A DNA stretch of 64,000 nucleotides from Naegleria gruberi (lineage: Eukaryota), in NCBI GenBank assembly GCA_000004985.1, contig GG738905.1. The stretch is one strand, 5' to 3'. Shown in pieces: positions 1,582-44,705 of the stretch. Numbering within the stretch: position 1 is the first letter of the stretch; every line of letters begins with the position of its first letter. The translations under genes and the position numbers were made by a program. Under the pieces are notes generated by a model. It saw only the letters and a list, made by a program, of their open reading frames with translations. It did not search any database and was not told the DNA's origin.

Positions 1582-1631
1582 NNNNNNNNNNNNNNNNNNN
1601 NNNNNNNNNNNNNNNNNNNNNNNNNNNNNNN
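1582..1631. other. Assembly gap (50 N)
   Basis: A run of exactly 50 N. Confidence 0.99.
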
Positions 1632-35049: not shown

Positions 35050-35099
35050 NNNNNNNNNNNNNNNNNNNNNNNNNNNNNNNNNNNNNNNNNNNNNNNNNN
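35050..35099. other. Assembly gap (50 N)
   Basis: A run of 50 N. Confidence 0.99.
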
Positions 35100-35388
35100 T
35101 TGATAACATTTCTTCATGCTCATCTGACAGTATGGTTTCGAATGCTTGCCAACTTAAAATGATTCTGAAATCAAATGAGGAAACAATTTTCGCCGATAAT
35201 ACCTGCATCTCTTGCAAGACCCTTGCCGATTACAAAGAAATGAATCCTGAATTGATTTGCACAACTGGAGATGGTTTTCCAACCATTATAGAATCACACC
35301 AATCTTACGATTATGAAATTAAATTCACAGAGAGCAGAGAAGAAGCAATTCATTGGATGAATGGCAAGTTATTCAATTAAGGACTTTA

Positions 35389-36303
35389 TTAATCTGCAAA
35401 TCCAGAACCTCCATGGCTTGAGGAGCCACCTCCACCACCACCACCTCCTCCTCCAAAATCATTCGAAGTGGTATAATTGGTATCATTGAAAGAGGAATAA
35501 TTACCACCACTCCCATCACCACCATTTCCTCCACCACCTCCACCTTTTCTATTCCTCAAAACACAAAATAATATCAGACCTGTAAGGAGGAAAGTTCCAC
35601 CAATTACACTAAGGATAATGGCTGCATTGATGGCACTTTGGTCAATTAGGCATTTATCGTATTGGTTGGAATTGGTACGAAAGGTTACGGATGGGGTGTA
35701 TTGAGAAATGAGATTTGATTTCTGATAGAAAATGGAATATTGTTGATTGGAATTGAGTGTGAGAATTCCATTGCTGTCAGGAGTTGGGGGATTTGAGAAA
35801 TCAATAGTGGAATCAAAGATGAATGTGGAATTTAGATTTAAAATCTTGTAATTATCCTTGTAATAATACGAAACTTGATAAGCCTTTTGACTTTCAGTTT
35901 GGAAGAAACTGTTCGATCCAGAAATAGTATACGAAAGTTTAAAGGATAGTACAGTTATTCCATTTTCAGGAGTTGACGGCTCCAAATACAGTACTACATA
36001 TGGACTTTCACTAATTTTCTGATACTCACTTCTAATGTTATATCCATTATCCGAAACTAAAGTCACAGAACGATCATATGCATTGGAAGCGAGTGGAGGT
36101 AATGCTCTTCCAATTCTAGAAAAGGTTCCATTAAATTCATATTGAAAATATTCAACAATTTTCAATGAACAATCTCCGTTTCGAATATAAATTTCAGAAG
36201 AAAGTGATTGTAGTGAGTAGGATTTGGCAGTTGAAGAATTGGTCATGGCTGCTAGCAGCAGTAAAGCTATTAGAAATGCAGACAACAGGACGAAGATTCG
36301 CAT
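35389..36303 (-). CDS. Secreted / single-pass membrane glycoprotein with a poly-Gly cytoplasmic tail
   Basis: A signal peptide (MRIFVLLSAFLIALLLLAAM) precedes an ectodomain with many N-x-S/T sites, a TM helix (AAIILSVIGGTFLLTGLILFCVL) and Gly runs. Confidence 0.5.
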   Translation of the reverse strand: MRIFVLLSAFLIALLLLAAMTNSSTAKSYSLQSLSSEIYIRNGDCSLKIVEYFQYEFNGTFSRIGRALPPLASNAYDRSVTLVSDNGYNIRSEYQKISESPYVVLYLEPSTPENGITVLSFKLSYTISGSNSFFQTESQKAYQVSYYYKDNYKILNLNSTFIFDSTIDFSNPPTPDSNGILTLNSNQQYSIFYQKSNLISQYTPSVTFRTNSNQYDKCLIDQSAINAAIILSVIGGTFLLTGLILFCVLRNRKGGGGGGNGGDGSGGNYSSFNDTNYTTSNDFGGGGGGGGGGSSSHGGSGFAD

Positions 36304-36723
36304 TCTAATATTTTTTTTAATGTGTGTGAAAATTGATGTAAATTAGAAAGCTAATATTTGCGCGAGAAATAATTGCATTCGCCATTTTGAGAAAGCATGT
36401 TACCTGATTTTGATTATAATAACGAACTTTTCATTACATAAATTTTGTTGTTCTATCTACAAACAATGTTGTAAATAAAGATGAAGAACTGAGGTGGTGC
36501 CCTATTAAAAAAAAAATAATAATTATTTTGAAGGGATATTACAAGACGTTGGGAGTTTTCCAACAGAAATTAACAATTCATGACATTGAGTGAAATTGCA
36601 GATTTAACAAGTCAAATAGTGGTTAGAACCTGCACCGATTCTTCGGAAGAATTGTTGAATATTTTGATGAATGGTTGGAATGTATTTATTGTTGTATTTA
36701 TGGATCGGTGTAATGGAACACAT

Positions 36724-37189
36724 TCATTTAGTAATTTCTTTCAATTCATTAAGGTGCAACACTTGAACGTCATACGTATTACTCAATGTGTGAACACCAT
36801 AATCATTTGAAAGAAGCTTTACATTATTATTAATGCAAACGTTTTCTTTGAGATATTTGGCTGTCAAAATAATTTCCTCATCCCATGTAATATCTCCAAC
36901 CAACATGCTCCTAATATATTTCTGAACATCTTCTACAGGTTCATTATGTCTCAATGAACCTAATGAATCAGTAATTTGTTGTAGAGCTACTATTTTTTTC
37001 CTCAAAGCATTATCATTCTTCAAGCCATCCAATTCTATAAGAACTCTCCTGGGGAAACAAACTAACTCACCTAATAATTCAATGTAATCAAATACCTTTT
37101 GAGTTTCATCAATTTTCATGGTTATCAAAATATTGGTGTCAAACACCCAAATGCCAGTTATTGGTTTAACTAAATGATGAACAGTGCTG
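36724..37189 (-). CDS. PIN-domain protein, 5' end lost in the assembly gap
   Basis: The frame stays open from the gap (...LVKPITGIWVFDTNILITMKIDE). The PIN signatures are FDTNILI for the first acidic residue and VLIELDGLK and LLSNDYGV for later ones. Confidence 0.55.
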
Positions 37190-37239
37190 NNNNNNNNNNN
37201 NNNNNNNNNNNNNNNNNNNNNNNNNNNNNNNNNNNNNNN
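37190..37239. other. Assembly gap (50 N)
   Basis: A run of 50 N. Confidence 0.99.
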
Positions 37240-39631
37240 AGCGTAAGTTTGGATTCACTTTGTTGACATTAAGATGTTAATTTTCGAAAATTCAGATGGT
37301 GAAATTGTTGAGTGCTACTCTTTAGAACCATTCATTGAGGGAGAATATCAAAAATATTTTAGTAATAGTGGAGAAGTGCCATGTATTGCGGCAGCCATCC
37401 AGTCTCCAGAAGTAATGGCATTATTCCAGACCTCCCAAACGTTCTCCCATTGGACATATGAAATAACCAAACAAAATTTAATAGTTACAGATATTCAGGG
37501 TGTGAAATATAGAATGACAGATCCAGCAATTTCCTCAGTAGGTCAATTATATGGAGAAACAGACACTGGTGAGGAAGGATTTAAAGACTTTTTTGAAGCT
37601 CACTATTGTAATGAACTTTGTTTAAAACTTGGATTGAAACATCCAAACGGTGATTTGTACATGGAACATCCATCTCTTCCAAAAACAATTTCAAACACAA
37701 TTGACCATGTAGACTTCTGTTCAGGATACTGTTGTGGAAACTATATTGAATACAAGATTGGTGAGAAAACACCAGATGGCACGCTTTTTTGCAACAAATG
37801 TAACCAGCGTAATAGTATAACTGAAAAGAAAGTTTGTAAAAAGAAAGGATGTTCCCTTAAATTTGAAATTGAAAGATGGTATTGGGTATCAACTGGAAAA
37901 CATCCACCAACCAAATGTCATCTACACAGAGGAACTATAGCATCTGAATTAAGGGATTGGAAGAAAAACAAAACCCTACCAAATGGAGCTCTCTTCACTC
38001 AAGAAGAAATGCAAAATCAATTAGATAAGGATCCAGATTTGAAAAAGCAATTTGAGAAGAGTATCATCCAAGAAAAGAAACCAGATTTATTTAATACTGT
38101 TGTTATTTCAAATCTCCCTGCTAGAACAAATTCCATGGATATCTTTAATATGCTTCCCCCTTTCTTCACTAATAGAAATCAGAAAGTGAAAGTCACTGAA
38201 CTTGAAGTGCCTTCAACCTTCAGCATTGAGTTTGAGAATGAACCAATTGCGTTAGAGGCATATCAAATTCTTGGATCATACATCCATAGAAGAAGATTAA
38301 TTGTTTGTAGACCTCTACAACACAAACATGAATCAGTGAAACTGGATAAAAGCTCCATCAATATTCAGTTGTCAAAGTATCCAAATGTTAAATGCAGTGA
38401 TATTTTACAATATTTCAAGGATTCGAATTACAAAATTCAAGACAAGTACTATGAGGAAAACAAGTTTGCAAATTTCACATTCTCTGATCCCTCAATAGCA
38501 CCAACCTTGGTCTCAAAAGGTTTATCTATTGATGGCACACTTGTTAAAGTTGTTTATAAGAAGGAGAAGCCAATTACTAAACAAGATGTACCACTAAAGA
38601 ATTTTAAGGAAAAGAAAATAGAAATTGATGAAAACGTTGACAAGACATCTGTACACATCAAATGGAGACCTAAAAATCCATCCGAATCTGTTCAGTTGCA
38701 AGAGATTGATCTTTTAAAACTTTTGAACCAATCTGACATTTTTAAGAAGAAATTCAATTCTGCTAAATCATTTATGCAAATTACTTTCAAATCAGAACAA
38801 TCTGCAGCATTATTGATTAAAAATGGTTTAAAGTTGCCAAACTTCAAGTTTACAATCAATTTCAAGAAGATACAAGAAAATGAAAGGAGCAATGATTGTA
38901 ATGAAAAACGAGTACAAAGTGAGGCCAAATCCAAAAAAGAAAAGCAATATCCAAAGGTTGTGGCAAACTCGCTTACTCCAACATCTGATTCAACTACCAA
39001 AAATCTTAAAAGCAATATTTCAACATCTAACAATCAATCACCCAAGCAACAAAATATTTCTAAAATGCAAAATTTGATGTTTGTTTTTGATATTAACACA
39101 CTTTTGAAAATTGGTAATTTACGTAATTTACTAGGACAATTTCTAGAAAACCACATCCAGTTTTGTGTTCCAGATATTAAATTGGACGAAATGAACGAAG
39201 ACACGTTTGCGGTTCAAAATTTAGTAGATGAATTCAAAGAAATCAATGTACAAGTTCCTGATGAATCAAATAATCTCACTTTAAGAACTCTTAAAGTAAC
39301 CAAAAAGGTGTCTGACAATTATCCAAATAGGAATGTTATGCTTGTGACAGATGATAAAGAATTGAAAGCTAACGCAGATAAATTCAGATTGAATGTTATC
39401 AATAGCTCAGCAATGAATCAATTAATTAGACAGTCAAGCGTAAATAATTCAGTACCAAAGCCAATACCATCAATTTCCAATCCATCACAAAAATCTACAA
39501 CTATTCCAACAACTAATACTGTTGAAACAATTATCATAGAACCATCTAATCAAAGAACAACCAACACACCTGTACCTGTTCCTGTTTTGCAAAGTATGAC
39601 CAAACTGATTAGTCATGGAAAGAGAAAATGA
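37240..39631 (+). CDS. Alpha-kinase (C-terminal half of the catalytic domain) - Cys/His-rich cluster - long Lys-rich linker - C-terminal PIN-like domain. The 5' end is lost in the gap.
   Basis: The frame is open from the gap. LEPFIEGEYQKYFSNSG ... TDIQGVKYRMTDPAI ... GETDTGEEGFKDFFEAHYCNELCLKL matches the alpha-kinase (eEF2K/MHCK) C-lobe, including DxQG, TDP and the Gly-rich and HxCN motifs. The Cys/His cluster is CSGYCCGN...CNKCNQ...CKKKGC...CHLH. The C-terminal FVFDINTLLK...CVPDIKLDEM...VMLVTDDKELKANA is PIN-like. Confidence 0.7.
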
Positions 39632-39772
39632 ATCTAAATCAAAAAATAGACTATTATTAAATAATTTTTATTTTTGGATAATTATTGGATGAGAACAAAT
39701 GTTTGTTACAAACAATACCCTATTGATCGTCCACTGCGAAAGCTTTATGAATGGCAACTATTCATGAGTACT

Positions 39773-42700
39773 CTAATGGAGAGAAATGATAGCTTGTTTT
39801 TCCACATGTTGAGCACTTGAAGACATTCTCAAATTATCTAAACTCATTCTCAATGCAGAATCTCCTCCTCTAAAAACCTCCAAAGTTCCCTCCCTTAAAT
39901 CATCTTCCTTATTTGGTTCGTGAATGTATGTTTTCATTTGACCTTTTCCTTTCACTTCGACATATCGTTCTTGGAATTCGTGTTTATCTTTGAGTCGTTG
40001 ATAGCATGTTTCGGTTACTTGAATGAATCCTGCAGGGCATGTACTTTCCATTCTTGAAGCAGTCTTTGATAATGTTATTTAAATTGTAAAGTGTGAAAAA
40101 TAAACTTACATTCACAGCATCAGACCAGACATCGTAGGCATATTTCAATACTCCACAAACTCCTGCAACTATTGGTCCAGAGTTAATGCCAACTCTTATT
40201 CCAATATTCAATCCATGATCCTCACAAAACAATTGAACTACTTCTGACAACTTGACAGCAAATGTGAAAGTTCTTTCCACATGATGAGCTTCATTCATAC
40301 CATCAGGTTTCAATCCAGCAGTACAGAAATACTTGGATCCAATTGTCTTTATCTTTTCCAAATTGAAATTGATGGTCAAGTCATCAAATTCATGAATAAT
40401 TTCATTCAAAGTTTGAACCAAATCAAAAGCAGATAAATTCAAATCCAATAATCCAACAATATCACTAAACAAAATGGTTACATCATCGAACTTGTCAGCA
40501 ATCAGAGTTTCTCCTGCAATCAGACGTTGAGCTACACTCTCTGGCATGATATTCATCAAGAGAGATTCGCTTTTTTTCTTTTCCTCAGCTAGTTCCTTAA
40601 CTTGTACTTTGTGTTCTGAAATATCACGCATGAAACATGAAATGATGTTTCGTCCTTCTAGTGCCGAAACTGAAATTCTCAATTCAACTGGGAATGATGA
40701 AGAATTCTTTCTTAAACCATTTAGTTCAAGAGTTTCAGAATAGCTTGTGGCAGAAACTCCCATTTTGGAAATGACTGGTTCTAGATTGGCAGCTGATTCC
40801 TTGTCAAATAATTTGTGGAGTGGAAATCCAATAATTTGATCTCCTCTGAATCCAAATAACTTTTCAGAAGCATTGTTGAAAATGTCAATTGTGCCACTTG
40901 ATGAGCAAATGACAGCACTCGTTAAGGCAGCTTCTAGAATGGCTCTTTCTTTTGTCGTTTTGAATTTGTTTTTCGATCTGGACTTTCCATTAGATAAGAG
41001 ATGGAAGAAGATATAGTTTCGAATATCGTCATTGGTATCCAATATTTCCCATGGAATGTAATTGAACAATTTTCTGAGAACATAATTTTCATTCTCAATG
41101 GTAGAGGTATACGTGTAGGTAATCCATGTCAGAAATAGCAATAATGGACAACCTAGGACAGCTGACAGTATTGTCATCAATGGTTGTTCTTGGAAAAAGT
41201 TGTAATAACAGAGTTTGTTTAAGGTTTCCAAATTGGTGAGTAGTACTATGGAATGATCAAAGAGAAATTCTGCCAATTCATTGATTTGTTTCATTTCTAG
41301 AGAGATAGTTTCGTTTGAGATTAGTAATTGATTGAAATTCAAAATGCTAGTTCTGAACTGCCCTATTTGGGTATCCAAAGATTGACAATCAAAATGAGAA
41401 CAATTAGTTGGCAATGTCAATAATAAATTGTCGATATTCGGATTGAATCCACTCAAACTAAAGTAATCATCAATTTGAGAACCATATCTCAACATATTCC
41501 AGTTTCTGTCAAATAAACTCATATCTGCCAATAATCTGTCATGAAATTTAACTCTCTTCTCATAATCTGCAATTGAAGCTACTTGAAGAAGATCATATCT
41601 TAAACTCTGAGATATATGCATTGATTGTGCTGTAGATTCCAACTTGTAAAGTCCATGTTCCAATATTTTCAATTTTCTGAAAATATCAGCAACGATCAAA
41701 GACATGGTTGCTGTGGCCACAATGAAGGACAAACAAACAACAATTACCAAAAAACTATTGGATGAGATACTATCCTTTGTGGAGTCTACATTCGTACCAT
41801 CCTTATCAATCAATCTCTCCATTCCAATAATGACCTTCTTGGATTCGTCTTTTGGAATTTTCTTAAACAAGTTTAGGATTTGTTTTCTCTGGTGAAGGAA
41901 TTTAAAACTACAAAAACCATTGAAAATCAAATATAGAAAGAAAATTAATCCAATAAATGATGATAAGGCAATGTAAGCATATGAATAGTTCCTTAATTCG
42001 CCTTGTTGGAATTGAAGAGTTTTTTGGAAGAAATCTAACATTCCATCTGAGAATGCTACTCGATTCATTTCAATGAAATTCAATAATTCTTGACTGATCT
42101 TCAAGTTGGATGTGTTTGTGGAAATAATTGTTTCAGATAGAACTCGTTTCGTCTTTTTCACAAACCATGAAGTTGAGGAATTTTTGTAAACTTGATTATC
42201 AAGAAGGAGAGTCTTGTCTTGTTTAGTATACAATAAGGAAACCAATTCATTGAATGAGAAGGAATCGAATAGAGTTTCGAACGAGTCAATCTTTGCAAGG
42301 TCGTTTTCCAGAACGTTCTGAAATGATTTTCTATACTCTAAAGATGAGCTATAATTCAAAGTTGACATTGCTCCAATATTTCCATTCACATTCGAAACTC
42401 CACAAAGTGTAGAAGTCGGAATTGAACTCAACATGGCAGATTTCAACAAAATATCGAATACACTATCATTCTGTGTAAATGAAAGTCCAACAATTAACAA
42501 AATTGCAATCAACACAATCGAAACCAAACCAGAGCTCACAATAAAATAAAACGTCGTTCTATTCTCATCCTTCTTATGAAGTGCCGAGCTGAAAACTTCT
42601 TGTTGCTTATCAGCTTGATCCATCAACTCTTCTGGTTGTTGTTCACTTACAGAGATGGAATCAAAGGCCTCATCATTGACATTCTCACTGAACATGTCGA

Positions 42701-44705
42701 CTCTCATGCCGTTGTTGTTATTGCTGCTACTACTTGTGTAGCTCTTTGTTATGATGAGTTCTCCGTGTGTTTTATCTGATCTTTCATTATCTGAGTTGTT
42801 GTTATTGGATGAAGAATGTTGTGAGGATGGTTTGAATTTGAATTCTTCCTGATATTGAGCGAACATTTTCTGAATGGCATGATCTTCCTCATTGTCTATA
42901 AGGAGATTGTGGAAAGCTAGGTCGCATTCATTGGATAATCTTTGAATTTGTTGAACAATAGTGTCAACAGCAACAGAGGCCAATAAATTCTTCCAAAATT
43001 GGACAATTAGTAATCTAAGCATTTTGATTCTACGCTTCGTTCCCTCCATAATGATATCAGAGGCTCCCGAAGATGAAGTTCTCCCTTCAGATAAATTCTT
43101 TTCCAACTCTTTTGTTCGAATATAGAGAGAATATTGAATGAAAATGTTGGCTCTCTTTTTCTCTGCCTTCTTAATCACTATTAAGGCAAGAAAGAAGTTT
43201 GGTATTTCCTTGTAGAACATGGAAATGAGAATTAAACTCTGAGCATCATGGACTTCTGATTTGTGAACGATTCTAATGGCATCATTTGCTAATTTCTTAT
43301 CCTCATCCGATCCTTTCAATGAAAATTTAATAAAAGTTGACAAGTAAGGCAACTCTCTCTGTGTTAACAGGACATCAGATCCACAATTTACAATTGCCTT
43401 AGCGAGATGCGACCCCCTCCTCTTCACAGACTTGGAATAGAATTCCAATATCAGAAATCCAATCACGAAAAAGATGATTCCCAAAACAAGAGGTGAAAAA
43501 GTCAATCCCAATCCAAATTCCCACATGTCATCCACGTTGATGAGAGTACTCACGAGTGAGGCAATTCCTACTCCAACTCGAGCAAATCCAATTCCACCAT
43601 AAACTGCATTGGCTTTCCTCCTCAAGAATGGTAAATCGACAAACATCAAGACAATAAATCCAATAGAAAGAACAATATAATAGACAGGTCTCAGGAAATT
43701 GACTATATGAGGAGTCACTCCTGCCACAATCAAGTACAATTGATTCGTTCCAATCAGATAGCTCATCACGAATGGATTCTCCAAAACAAATTTGGCCTTA
43801 CTCGCCACCATCGTATCACAAAATATCATGACCGCGCTCATAGTGATCAGAATTTGAATGATACAGAACAGTAAACTGATACTAGCCAATATACCATTCA
43901 TCGTGCCCCAGCATTCCACATTTCTGAAATTCCTCAATGCAAATGAAGGTGGAGCTCCCTGAACAATAGAAACCTTACTAGTAAAATCACAATCAAAGAA
44001 ACCTTGCATGAGACCATAGGTTATTGGCAGAGAGAGGAAGGTCATTAGGAAGAAGACAAATCTACCTCCAGTTCTGATCTTTTTCCAATAAGAGCTACCC
44101 AGAATGATGGATCGGTAGGTAATGTAAATAATCAGAAAGCAAATTGACTGCATCACAAAGACAATCACTGCCAATGCAATAAATCCTTCATAGGGCAAGT
44201 ATTGAAATCCCAATGTTCTTGGTATGAGTAATATGTTATAAATGTATCTGCCATATTCACCCCAATTATAATCGATGGCCACTCCTAGTGAAAGCGTCTG
44301 ATAGGCAATCAGCATGTGTATCGAGAGACACATGAGTGGATGCAATGGTTTTTCCAATTTGAGTGATTGAACAAACATGAATAGTTTCCTAGTGATGGCT
44401 CCTTGATTGTCTGTTTGTGAAGGTTGTGAATTCACACCAGACAGTTCATCAGAAATTACATTAAAGTAACCACCTCCTCCTGCTGTTGTTTTTGTTATTG
44501 CTGCTGCTTGATTCCCTGAAGCATTATTAAGACTACTAGTACTTCCATTGATGGGAAGGATTGAGTTGGAGCTGGGAGCTTCGGAGAGTCTGTTAGTCGA
44601 TCGTCTGGAGAGAAAATTCGACCTCGTCTTGAGATTCCTTCCACTATTACTAGTATGAAGTGTATTGTTATTGTTATTATTTGAATTTGAATTTGATTTA
44701 TCCAT
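39773..44705 (-). CDS. Polytopic membrane protein with a PAS domain and a single C-terminal class III nucleotidyl cyclase homology domain. Exons are 44705..40110 and 40063..39773.
   Basis: The N-terminus is Asn-rich, followed by at least 8 TM helices, a roughly 300-aa loop and more TM helices. The PAS domain reads ILEAALTSAVICSSSGTIDIFNNASEKLFGFRGDQIIGFPL...FPVELRISV...CFMRDISEHK. The cyclase block reads FSDIVGL...EKIKTIGSKYFC...GIRVGINSGPIVAGVCG...YDVWSDAVN|TASRMEST. A 47-nt GTAAGT...CAAAG intron is present. Confidence 0.8.

What the first reader, a model, noticed from the sequence alone, without database searches (positions are those of the whole stretch)
36724..37239. A second PIN-domain ORF lies head-to-head with the alpha-kinase/PIN gene, both truncated by the same gap
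The minus-strand ORF carries a clear PIN N-terminal signature (VFDTNILI ... VLIELDGLK ... LLSNDYGV) and its frame stays open into the N run. This leaves a PIN module on each side of the gap in inverted orientation. Three explanations fit. It may be a genuine divergent gene pair. It may be an inverted partial duplication of the alpha-kinase/PIN gene. Or it may be an assembly collapse or mis-join at an inverted repeat. Either way the true structure of this locus is unresolved.
Basis: seen in the sequence. Interest (0 to 1): 0.5.

Follow-up and report, generated by a model that had tools for sequence, protein, structure and literature searches.

The report
Gap-truncated PIN nuclease gene in Naegleria
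The minus-strand ORF is a real but ordinary PIN-type ribonuclease gene of the amoeba Naegleria gruberi whose start was lost in an assembly gap; it faces an alpha-kinase gene cut by the same gap, and it is not an inverted copy of that gene's tail.

Summary
Window 36724-37189 (minus strand) is a 154-codon ORF open into the 50-N gap at 37190-37239. It encodes a complete Pfam PIN_4 domain (E 2.2e-8, profile 1-129 of 132) and keeps all four catalytic acidic residues when aligned to the human SMG6 PIN. Its codon usage is gene-like only in that frame. It is 100% identical to a 131-aa GenBank 'predicted protein' of Naegleria gruberi, a model that starts at an internal Met and drops the first catalytic Asp. 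No ATG precedes the domain, so the true start lies in the gap.

The plus-strand neighbour holds only the C-terminal half of an alpha-kinase domain, so it is cut by the gap too. Homologues carry 275-690 residues upstream of that point. The 50 N are therefore probably a placeholder for about 1 kb or more.

The two PIN modules share no DNA similarity (shuffle level) and 24-26% protein identity. They sit 41 nt and 1841 nt from the gap. The plus-strand module is sub-threshold and degenerate. A recent inverted duplication or a collapse at an inverted repeat is not supported. A genuine head-to-head gene pair is the best reading. Scaffold placement of the 2,090-bp contig carrying the ORF could not be verified. 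Low interest.

The parts
36724..37189 (-). 3'-terminal coding part of the PIN gene: 154 codons plus the stop at 36724-36726, open into the gap, with no ATG upstream of the domain
   Evidence: 100% identical to GenBank/UniRef 'predicted protein [Naegleria gruberi]' P0001 over its 131 aa
36757..37149 (-). Complete PIN_4 (PF13638) domain, ORF residues 14-144. Acidic site residues: D17 (37138-37140), E52 (37033-37035), D103/E104 (36877-36882), D129 (36802-36804)
   Evidence: Pfam E 2.2e-8, profile 1-129/132; alignment to SMG6 PIN, PDB 2hww; coordinates
37105..37119 (-). Internal Met (MKIDE) used as the start of the 131-aa database model; it lies after the first catalytic Asp, so that model is probably N-terminally truncated
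37190..37239 (.). Scaffold gap of 50 N, probably a placeholder; hides the 5' ends of both genes and any shared promoter
   Evidence: all three gaps in the window are exactly 50 N; the missing alpha-kinase N-terminal half
37248..39631 (+). 3' part of the alpha-kinase gene. An in-frame TAA at 37244-37246 is followed by AG at 37246-37247, so the exon probably starts near 37248 and earlier exons lie in the gap
   Evidence: P0002 (705-aa GenBank model starting at an internal Met) is 100% identical
37253..37621 (+). C-terminal half of the alpha-kinase catalytic domain (Pfam profile 89-185 of 185)
   Evidence: E 2.3e-33; tblastn of homologues starts at 37253
39080..39400 (+). Divergent, probably degenerate PIN-like module near the C-terminus of the alpha-kinase protein (FVFDINTLL 39080-39106; VMLVTDDKEL 39335-39364)
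   Evidence: PIN_4 E 0.001, 19.8 bits, below the gathering score of 21.9; only 2 of 4 acidic positions align; SW against the minus-strand PIN reached by 2/1000 shuffles
35100..37189 (.). 2,090-bp contig lying between two 50-N gaps. It carries the PIN ORF, a complete 304-aa minus-strand ORF, and a plus-strand ORF fragment open into the other gap

Best explanation
The ORF is the C-terminal part of a real Naegleria gruberi gene. The organism is a eukaryote with about 33% GC. The gene encodes a PIN_4-family PIN domain, the same Pfam family as SMG6, SMG5, Swt1 and bacterial PhoH2. All four acidic metal-binding residues are retained. By inference from the family, the protein is therefore most likely a Mn2+/Mg2+-dependent endoribonuclease that cuts single-stranded RNA. 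At least 13 residues precede the first beta-strand without a Met. The protein is therefore longer than a minimal PIN, and its start codon, or upstream exons, lies in the scaffold gap. The gene is transcribed divergently from an alpha-kinase gene whose 5' exons are lost in the same gap. The 50 N are a placeholder for about 1 kb or more, which would hold both 5' ends and probably a shared bidirectional promoter. Shown: the ORF, the domain, the residues, the coding bias, truncation of both genes, and the absence of DNA similarity between the two PIN modules. Inferred: nuclease activity, the size of the gap, the bidirectional promoter, and the correctness of the scaffold join.
For: Organism and database identity. 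PIN_4 hit above the gathering score over the whole profile. Acidic residues aligned to SMG6 D1251, E1282, D1353 and D1392: with the residue list taken from PMC5499597. Frame-specific codon bias equal to that of neighbouring genes. No ATG between the gap and the domain. The alpha-kinase domain is present only from profile position 89, and homologues have 275-690 residues N-terminal to the aligned start. All three gaps in the window are exactly 50 N, and the other gap of this contig also cuts an ORF. No inverted repeat or nucleotide similarity between the two PIN modules or between the gap flanks.
Against: No sequence spans the gap, so an independent N-terminus and promoter have not been seen. 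The ORF sits on a 2,090-bp contig bounded by gaps on both sides, so its orientation and placement rest on mate-pair data I cannot inspect. No orthologue or other homologue was found (only the database copy of the gene itself among 1.84 billion representatives; nothing in viral or metagenome contigs), so there is no evidence from conservation or synteny. The PIN fold could not be confirmed by structure prediction (pLDDT 36). No expression data were available.
Confidence: 0.75

Rival explanations
1. Ancient inverted duplication. The two PIN modules are old paralogues that arose by local duplication and then diverged beyond DNA recognition. One stayed catalytically intact and the other decayed while fused to the alpha-kinase. 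This reading is compatible with the pair now being genuine separate genes.
For: Two PIN-like modules lie within 2.4 kb, and tblastn finds no other copy in the 64-kb window. Their local protein alignment score is 55 against a shuffle mean of 32.5 (sd 5.6), reached by 2 of 1000 shuffles. That is slightly better than either module scores against the SMG6 PIN (14 and 10 of 1000). BLASTP gives E 0.029.
Against: Identity is only 24-26%, which is normal for any two PIN domains. There is no DNA similarity. phmmer with the minus-strand PIN did not recover the alpha-kinase protein. The architectures differ: one is a small terminal ORF, the other is a module 1.8 kb into a multidomain gene.
Confidence: 0.2
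2. Scaffolding artefact. The 2,090-bp contig is misplaced or inverted, so the head-to-head adjacency with the alpha-kinase gene is not real.
For: The contig is short and bounded by two gaps of identical placeholder length. Both of its ends cut ORFs. The alpha-kinase lacks far more sequence than 50 nt could hold.
Against: There is no repeat or inverted repeat at the contig ends that would provoke a mis-join, and the gap flanks match nothing else in the window. Truncated ORFs at contig ends are expected in a gene-dense draft assembly. If the contig were flipped, the alpha-kinase would still face a divergent truncated ORF.
Confidence: 0.15
3. Recent inverted partial duplication of the alpha-kinase/PIN gene, or an assembly collapse at such an inverted repeat.
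For: Only the superficial picture of a PIN on each side of a gap in opposite orientation.
Against: DNA local alignment is at shuffle level (score 14 against 13.7; 144 of 300 shuffles reach it). The longest shared word is 16 nt. No inverted repeat exceeds 24 nt. The gap flanks are not inverted copies of each other. The modules lie at very different distances from the gap, 41 nt and 1841 nt.
Confidence: 0.03
4. Pseudogene or gene relic. The ORF is a decaying fragment with no functional start.
For: There is no ATG before the domain within the contig. No homologue exists anywhere.
Against: The 154-codon frame is intact in a genome where stop codons occur at about 7.5% per random codon. Codon bias is gene-like. 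All four catalytic residues are kept.
Confidence: 0.05

Closest known systems
PIN_4 family (Pfam PF13638; group PIN_4.COG1875 of Matelska et al. 2017, PMC5499597), including the SMG6 PIN endonuclease
   Same: Full-length match to the family profile. The DTN, ELDGL, acidic-x-x-IL and LxxxD motifs are present. The four site-A acidic residues align to SMG6 D1251, E1282, D1353 and D1392. As in SMG6 and SMG5, the PIN lies at the C-terminus of the protein.
   Different: There is no pairwise-detectable similarity to the SMG6 PIN (BLASTP E 22; no PDB hit). The long insertion of SMG6 between the second and third acidic residues is absent. The upstream part, where SMG6 has its 14-3-3-like domain, is unknown because it lies in the gap. 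There is no evidence of a role in nonsense-mediated decay.
SMG5-SMG6 composite PIN endonuclease (Muhlemann and Karousis 2026, PMC13182599)
   Same: A catalytically complete PIN lies beside a PIN-like module that lacks part of the acidic set. In SMG5-SMG6 such a pair forms one active site.
   Different: This is purely an analogy. No interaction was tested, the two Naegleria modules are not orthologues of SMG5 or SMG6, and the degenerate one is fused to an alpha-kinase.
Bacterial VapC toxins of VapBC toxin-antitoxin modules
   Same: A small PIN domain with four acidic residues, and a lineage-specific, fast-evolving gene.
   Different: The host is a eukaryote. At least 13 residues precede beta-strand 1, whereas VapC usually starts within a few residues of it. 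No antitoxin gene is visible, and the family assignment is PIN_4 rather than PF01850.
Alpha-kinases fused to PIN-like nucleases (for example P0015 from a pedinophyte alga: NYN + vWA + alpha-kinase)
   Same: It shows that alpha-kinase and PIN-superfamily nuclease modules do occur in one protein elsewhere.
   Different: That protein has an N-terminal NYN domain (PF01936), not a C-terminal PIN_4-like module, and it says nothing about a separate neighbouring PIN gene.

Membership tests
PIN_4 (PF13638): minus-strand ORF | Scores above the Pfam gathering threshold over essentially the whole domain profile | tested here: met
   34.9 bits against 21.9, E 2.2e-8, profile 1-129/132, residues 14-144; the database's precomputed Pfam assignment for P0001 is also PF13638
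PIN_4 (PF13638): minus-strand ORF | Four conserved acidic residues of site A (SMG6 D1251, E1282, D1353, D1392) | tested here: met
   MAFFT alignment with the verified SMG6 PIN sequence: D17, E52, D103/E104, D129; residue list from PMC5499597
PIN_4 (PF13638): minus-strand ORF | Three-layer alpha/beta/alpha PIN fold | tested here: inconclusive
   Single-sequence AlphaFold2 model has mean pLDDT 36.4, which is unusable; no homologues were available to build an alignment
PIN_4 (PF13638): minus-strand ORF | Metal-dependent endoribonuclease activity | not testable with these tools
   Needs a biochemical assay
SMG6/SMG5-type NMD factor | 14-3-3-like/TPR domain N-terminal to the PIN, and orthology to SMG6 or SMG5 | not testable with these tools
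   The upstream coding sequence lies in the gap. The PIN alone shows no significant pairwise similarity to the SMG6 PIN and gives no PDB hit
VapBC toxin-antitoxin module | Small co-oriented antitoxin gene immediately upstream of the PIN gene | not testable with these tools
   The upstream region is the gap. The eukaryotic host and the N-terminal extension of at least 13 residues argue against this family
Recent inverted duplication / inverted repeat | Nucleotide similarity between the two arms in reverse-complement orientation | tested here: not met
   SW score 14 against a shuffle mean of 13.7 (144/300 reach it); best blastn match 16 nt; no inverted repeat longer than 24 nt
PIN_4 (PF13638): plus-strand C-terminal module | Scores above the Pfam gathering threshold | tested here: not met
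   19.8 bits against 21.9, E 0.001, with only profile positions 86-128 matched; not reported at all when the whole protein was scanned at E <= 1
PIN_4 (PF13638): plus-strand C-terminal module | Four conserved acidic residues | tested here: not met
   Only the equivalents of D1251 and D1392 align; there is a Lys at the E1282 position and a deletion around D1353. The alignment is of low identity, so this result is tentative
Alpha-kinase (PF02816): plus-strand neighbour | Match to the alpha-kinase catalytic domain profile | tested here: met
   E 2.3e-33, but only profile positions 89-185 of 185 are present

The most novel reading that the evidence does not exclude
The catalytically complete small PIN and the degenerate PIN-like tail of the alpha-kinase protein are co-expressed from a bidirectional promoter hidden in the gap. 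Together they assemble into a composite two-PIN ribonuclease, as SMG5 and SMG6 do. The alpha-kinase and the intervening region would then license or target the cleavage. This would be a lineage-specific, kinase-coupled RNA-cleavage module in Naegleria. Both genes lack detectable orthologues, which would fit a fast-evolving conflict or defence system.
Probability: 0.05. Interest if true: 0.6.

Novelty: new member of a known kind. Interest (0 to 1): 0.15.

Why it matters
The practical value is in curation. Two GenBank protein models of N. gruberi (131 aa and 705 aa) are artefactually shortened by a placeholder gap, and the PIN model loses its first catalytic Asp. Anyone using these models, for example to count active PIN nucleases or alpha-kinases in Heterolobosea, would be misled. 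The worry about an inverted duplication or a mis-assembly at an inverted repeat can be set aside for the visible sequence. Biologically, this is one more uncharacterised PIN_4 nuclease. The one mildly intriguing point is an intact PIN encoded next to a degenerate PIN on a kinase, in light of the 2026 SMG5-SMG6 composite-site work.

Tried and rejected
- Homologue searches with the PIN fragment all failed. The word-indexed search of 5.8 billion proteins returned only the database copy of the gene itself. Full phmmer over 1.84 billion representatives did the same. IMG/VR viral contigs and JGI metagenome contigs gave nothing. NCBIfam and PHROGs gave nothing meaningful, and PDB by sequence gave nothing. 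No orthologue or synteny evidence was obtainable.
- I tried to recover the scaffold or a gap-spanning contig by exact-protein look-up. Queries were P0001, P0002, the neighbouring 304-aa ORF and the 785-aa ORF. None is on record.
- Single-sequence AlphaFold2 of both PIN modules gave pLDDT 36 and 40, which is unusable, so no fold search was run.
- I first read GTAAGT...CAG at 37243-37295 as an intron. I rejected this because five alpha-kinase homologues align in frame from 37253 or 37256 through that stretch.
- I looked for the missing alpha-kinase N-terminal half elsewhere in the window. It is absent.
- I checked the closest alpha-kinase homologue's contig (L001, Logan) for a PIN tail or a PIN neighbour. 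There is none; it carries a SAM-like ORF instead.
- The middle of the alpha-kinase protein looks RRM-like by eye, but there is no Pfam hit at E <= 1 and no internal repeat by BLASTP.
- The third word-indexed protein search was deliberately not used, because no query was likely to change the verdict.

Full report
**What the window is.** The sequence has about 33% GC throughout. The two ORFs at issue are 100% identical to 'predicted protein [Naegleria gruberi]' entries that sit on a 290,827-bp scaffold: P0001 (131 aa) and P0002 (705 aa). This is therefore a draft eukaryotic assembly. The window holds three N runs, at 1582-1631, 35050-35099 and 37190-37239, each exactly 50 N.

**Check of the observation.** On the minus strand, the frame that ends with the stop at 36724-36726 is open for 154 codons up to 37188, one base short of the gap. 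The quoted motifs are present: VFDTNILI at residues 15-22, VLIELDGLK at 49-57, and LLSNDYGV at 125-132.

Three results show that this is more than chance.
- Pfam PIN_4 (PF13638) matches at E 2.2e-8, with 34.9 bits against a gathering score of 21.9. The match covers profile positions 1-129 of 132 and ORF residues 14-144.
- At this composition a random codon is a stop with probability 0.075, so a 154-codon open run has probability about 6e-6.
- A codon-usage log-odds trained on 14 long ORFs of the window is +0.24 bits per codon in this frame and negative in the other five. Neighbouring genes behave the same way.

The ORF is therefore real coding sequence and a real PIN domain. The domain is complete. 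What is missing is the start of the protein. The 23 residues between the gap and the first Met (STVHHLVKPITGIWVFDTNILIT) contain no Met. The only candidate start inside the contig is the Met of MKIDE (37117-37119), which the GenBank model uses. That start removes beta-strand 1 and the first catalytic Asp. The open stretch of 14 codons upstream of the GTG is not significant by itself (P about 0.33).

**Catalytic residues.** I recalled the sequence of the human SMG6 PIN from memory. I then verified it as 100% identical to PDB 2hww chain A, residues 3-181, which correspond to SMG6 1241-1419. In a MAFFT alignment the minus-strand ORF has:
- D17 at the position of D1251
- E52 at E1282
- D103/E104 at D1353
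- D129 at D1392

These four are the site-A residues listed for SMG6 in the PIN superfamily classification (PMC5499597). The ORF therefore looks like an active PIN. Pairwise similarity to SMG6 is otherwise insignificant. It is a member of the Pfam family, not an SMG6 orthologue.

**The neighbour and the gap.** The plus-strand gene matches the alpha-kinase profile only from position 89 to 185 (E 2.3e-33). tblastn with 17 homologues starts at 37253-37322 in the window, and at residues 275-689 in the homologues for all but one, which aligns only from window 37436. Five alignments show clear in-frame similarity from IHFVDIKMLIF onward. An in-frame TAA lies at 37244-37246, followed by AG. The exon therefore probably begins near 37248, and everything upstream lies in the gap.

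This overturned my first guess that 37243-37295 is an intron. The missing alpha-kinase half is nowhere else in the window. At minimum, 88 profile positions (about 264 nt) are missing. If the gene resembles its homologues, 0.8-2 kb of coding sequence is missing.

To that must be added the PIN gene's 5' end and the intergenic DNA. All three gaps are exactly 50 N, and the gap at 35050-35099 also cuts an ORF with coding bias. I therefore infer that 50 N is a placeholder rather than a measured size.

**Test of the three interpretations.**
- The best local DNA alignment between 36724-37189 and the reverse complement of 39050-39450 scores 14. Codon shuffles average 13.7, and 144 of 300 reach the observed score.
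- The longest blastn match is 16 nt.
- The repeat finder reports no inverted pair longer than 24 nt in 36300-39700.
- The 400 nt on each side of the gap are not inverted copies of each other (score 11 against a shuffle mean of 12.2), and they match nothing else in the window.

The geometry is also asymmetric. The minus-strand PIN domain begins 41 nt from the gap, whereas the plus-strand module begins 1841 nt from it, at the far end of the alpha-kinase gene.

At protein level the two modules are 24-26% identical. Their local score is reached by 2 of 1000 shuffles, a little better than either against SMG6. They are therefore homologous as PIN domains, and an ancient duplication cannot be excluded.

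The plus-strand module is weak. It reaches PIN_4 E 0.001, at 19.8 bits below the gathering score, and only its last third matches. It aligns with only two of the four acidic positions.

A recent inverted duplication, or a collapse at an inverted repeat, is not supported. A genuine head-to-head pair whose 5' ends are hidden by the gap fits everything.

The remaining uncertainty is the scaffolding. The ORF sits on a 2,090-bp contig (35100-37189) bounded by gaps on both sides, and I cannot inspect the mate-pair evidence.

**Relatives elsewhere.** The PIN fragment has no detectable homologue other than its own database entry. This held for the 5.8 billion clustered proteins, a full phmmer scan of 1.84 billion representatives, IMG/VR viral contigs and JGI metagenome contigs.

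The alpha-kinase protein has no hit covering its C-terminal two thirds. The best foreign hit is 33% identical over 29% of the query. Its closest homologue's contig carries neither a PIN tail nor a PIN neighbour. Both genes thus look lineage-specific, and no synteny argument is possible.

Exact-protein look-ups found no other assembly of this locus. Single-sequence structure predictions failed, with pLDDT 36 and 40.

**Mechanism.** By membership in PIN_4 and retention of the acidic tetrad, the most likely activity is metal-dependent endonucleolytic cleavage of single-stranded RNA. This is inferred from the family, as described. Its target and biological role are unknown.

One speculative point is worth recording. 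An intact PIN encoded beside a degenerate PIN recalls the SMG5-SMG6 composite active site described in 2026 (PMC13182599). Nothing here tests that, and I give it about 5%.

**Verdict.** The gene is an ordinary, already deposited, uncharacterised PIN_4 member, and its database model is N-terminally truncated.

Nanopore reads of the same strain exist and would settle the structure. Interest is low.

Noticed in passing
window 35050-35380: The other gap of the same small contig (35050-35099) also cuts a gene. A plus-strand ORF fragment of 92 codons (35102-35380) is open into the gap and has coding bias only in that frame. It has no Pfam or NCBIfam match. The upstream 659-aa ORF (weak, sub-threshold ankyrin-repeat matches only) ends with a stop just 13 nt before that gap.
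   Followed up: partly
window 39773-44705 (minus strand): A large PAS + adenylate/guanylate cyclase gene has its cyclase domain split between two overlapping ORFs (profile 3-132 in 39984-44705, profile 136-180 in 39773-40051). This implies a short intron or a frameshift near 39984-40051.
   Followed up: partly
window 37105-37119 and 37514-39631: Both GenBank/UniRef models at this locus start at internal methionines because of the gap: the 131-aa PIN protein and the 705-aa alpha-kinase protein. The PIN model lacks the first catalytic Asp, and the kinase model omits about 89 residues of alpha-kinase domain that are present in the contig.
   Followed up: yes
window 37690-37930 (plus strand); L001 197-2866: After the kinase domain, the protein has a Cys-rich stretch that looks like a zinc ribbon (FCSGYCCGN...CNKCN...CKKKGC...KCHLHRG). 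It is shared with the closest homologue, P0004, from a Logan assembly. That homologue continues into a SAM-like ORF rather than a PIN.
   Followed up: partly
window 38010-38970 (plus strand): The roughly 320 residues between the Cys-rich stretch and the PIN-like tail look RRM-like by eye. They have no Pfam hit at E <= 1 and show no internal repeat by BLASTP.
   Followed up: partly
protein P0015 (Pedinophyceae sp. YPF-701), not in the window: This alpha-kinase protein carries an N-terminal NYN domain (PF01936, PIN-like superfamily). Alpha-kinase and PIN-like nuclease fusions therefore occur independently in another eukaryotic lineage.
   Followed up: no
window 1582-1631, 35050-35099, 37190-37239: All three assembly gaps in the window are exactly 50 N, which suggests a fixed placeholder length rather than estimated gap sizes.
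   Followed up: partly
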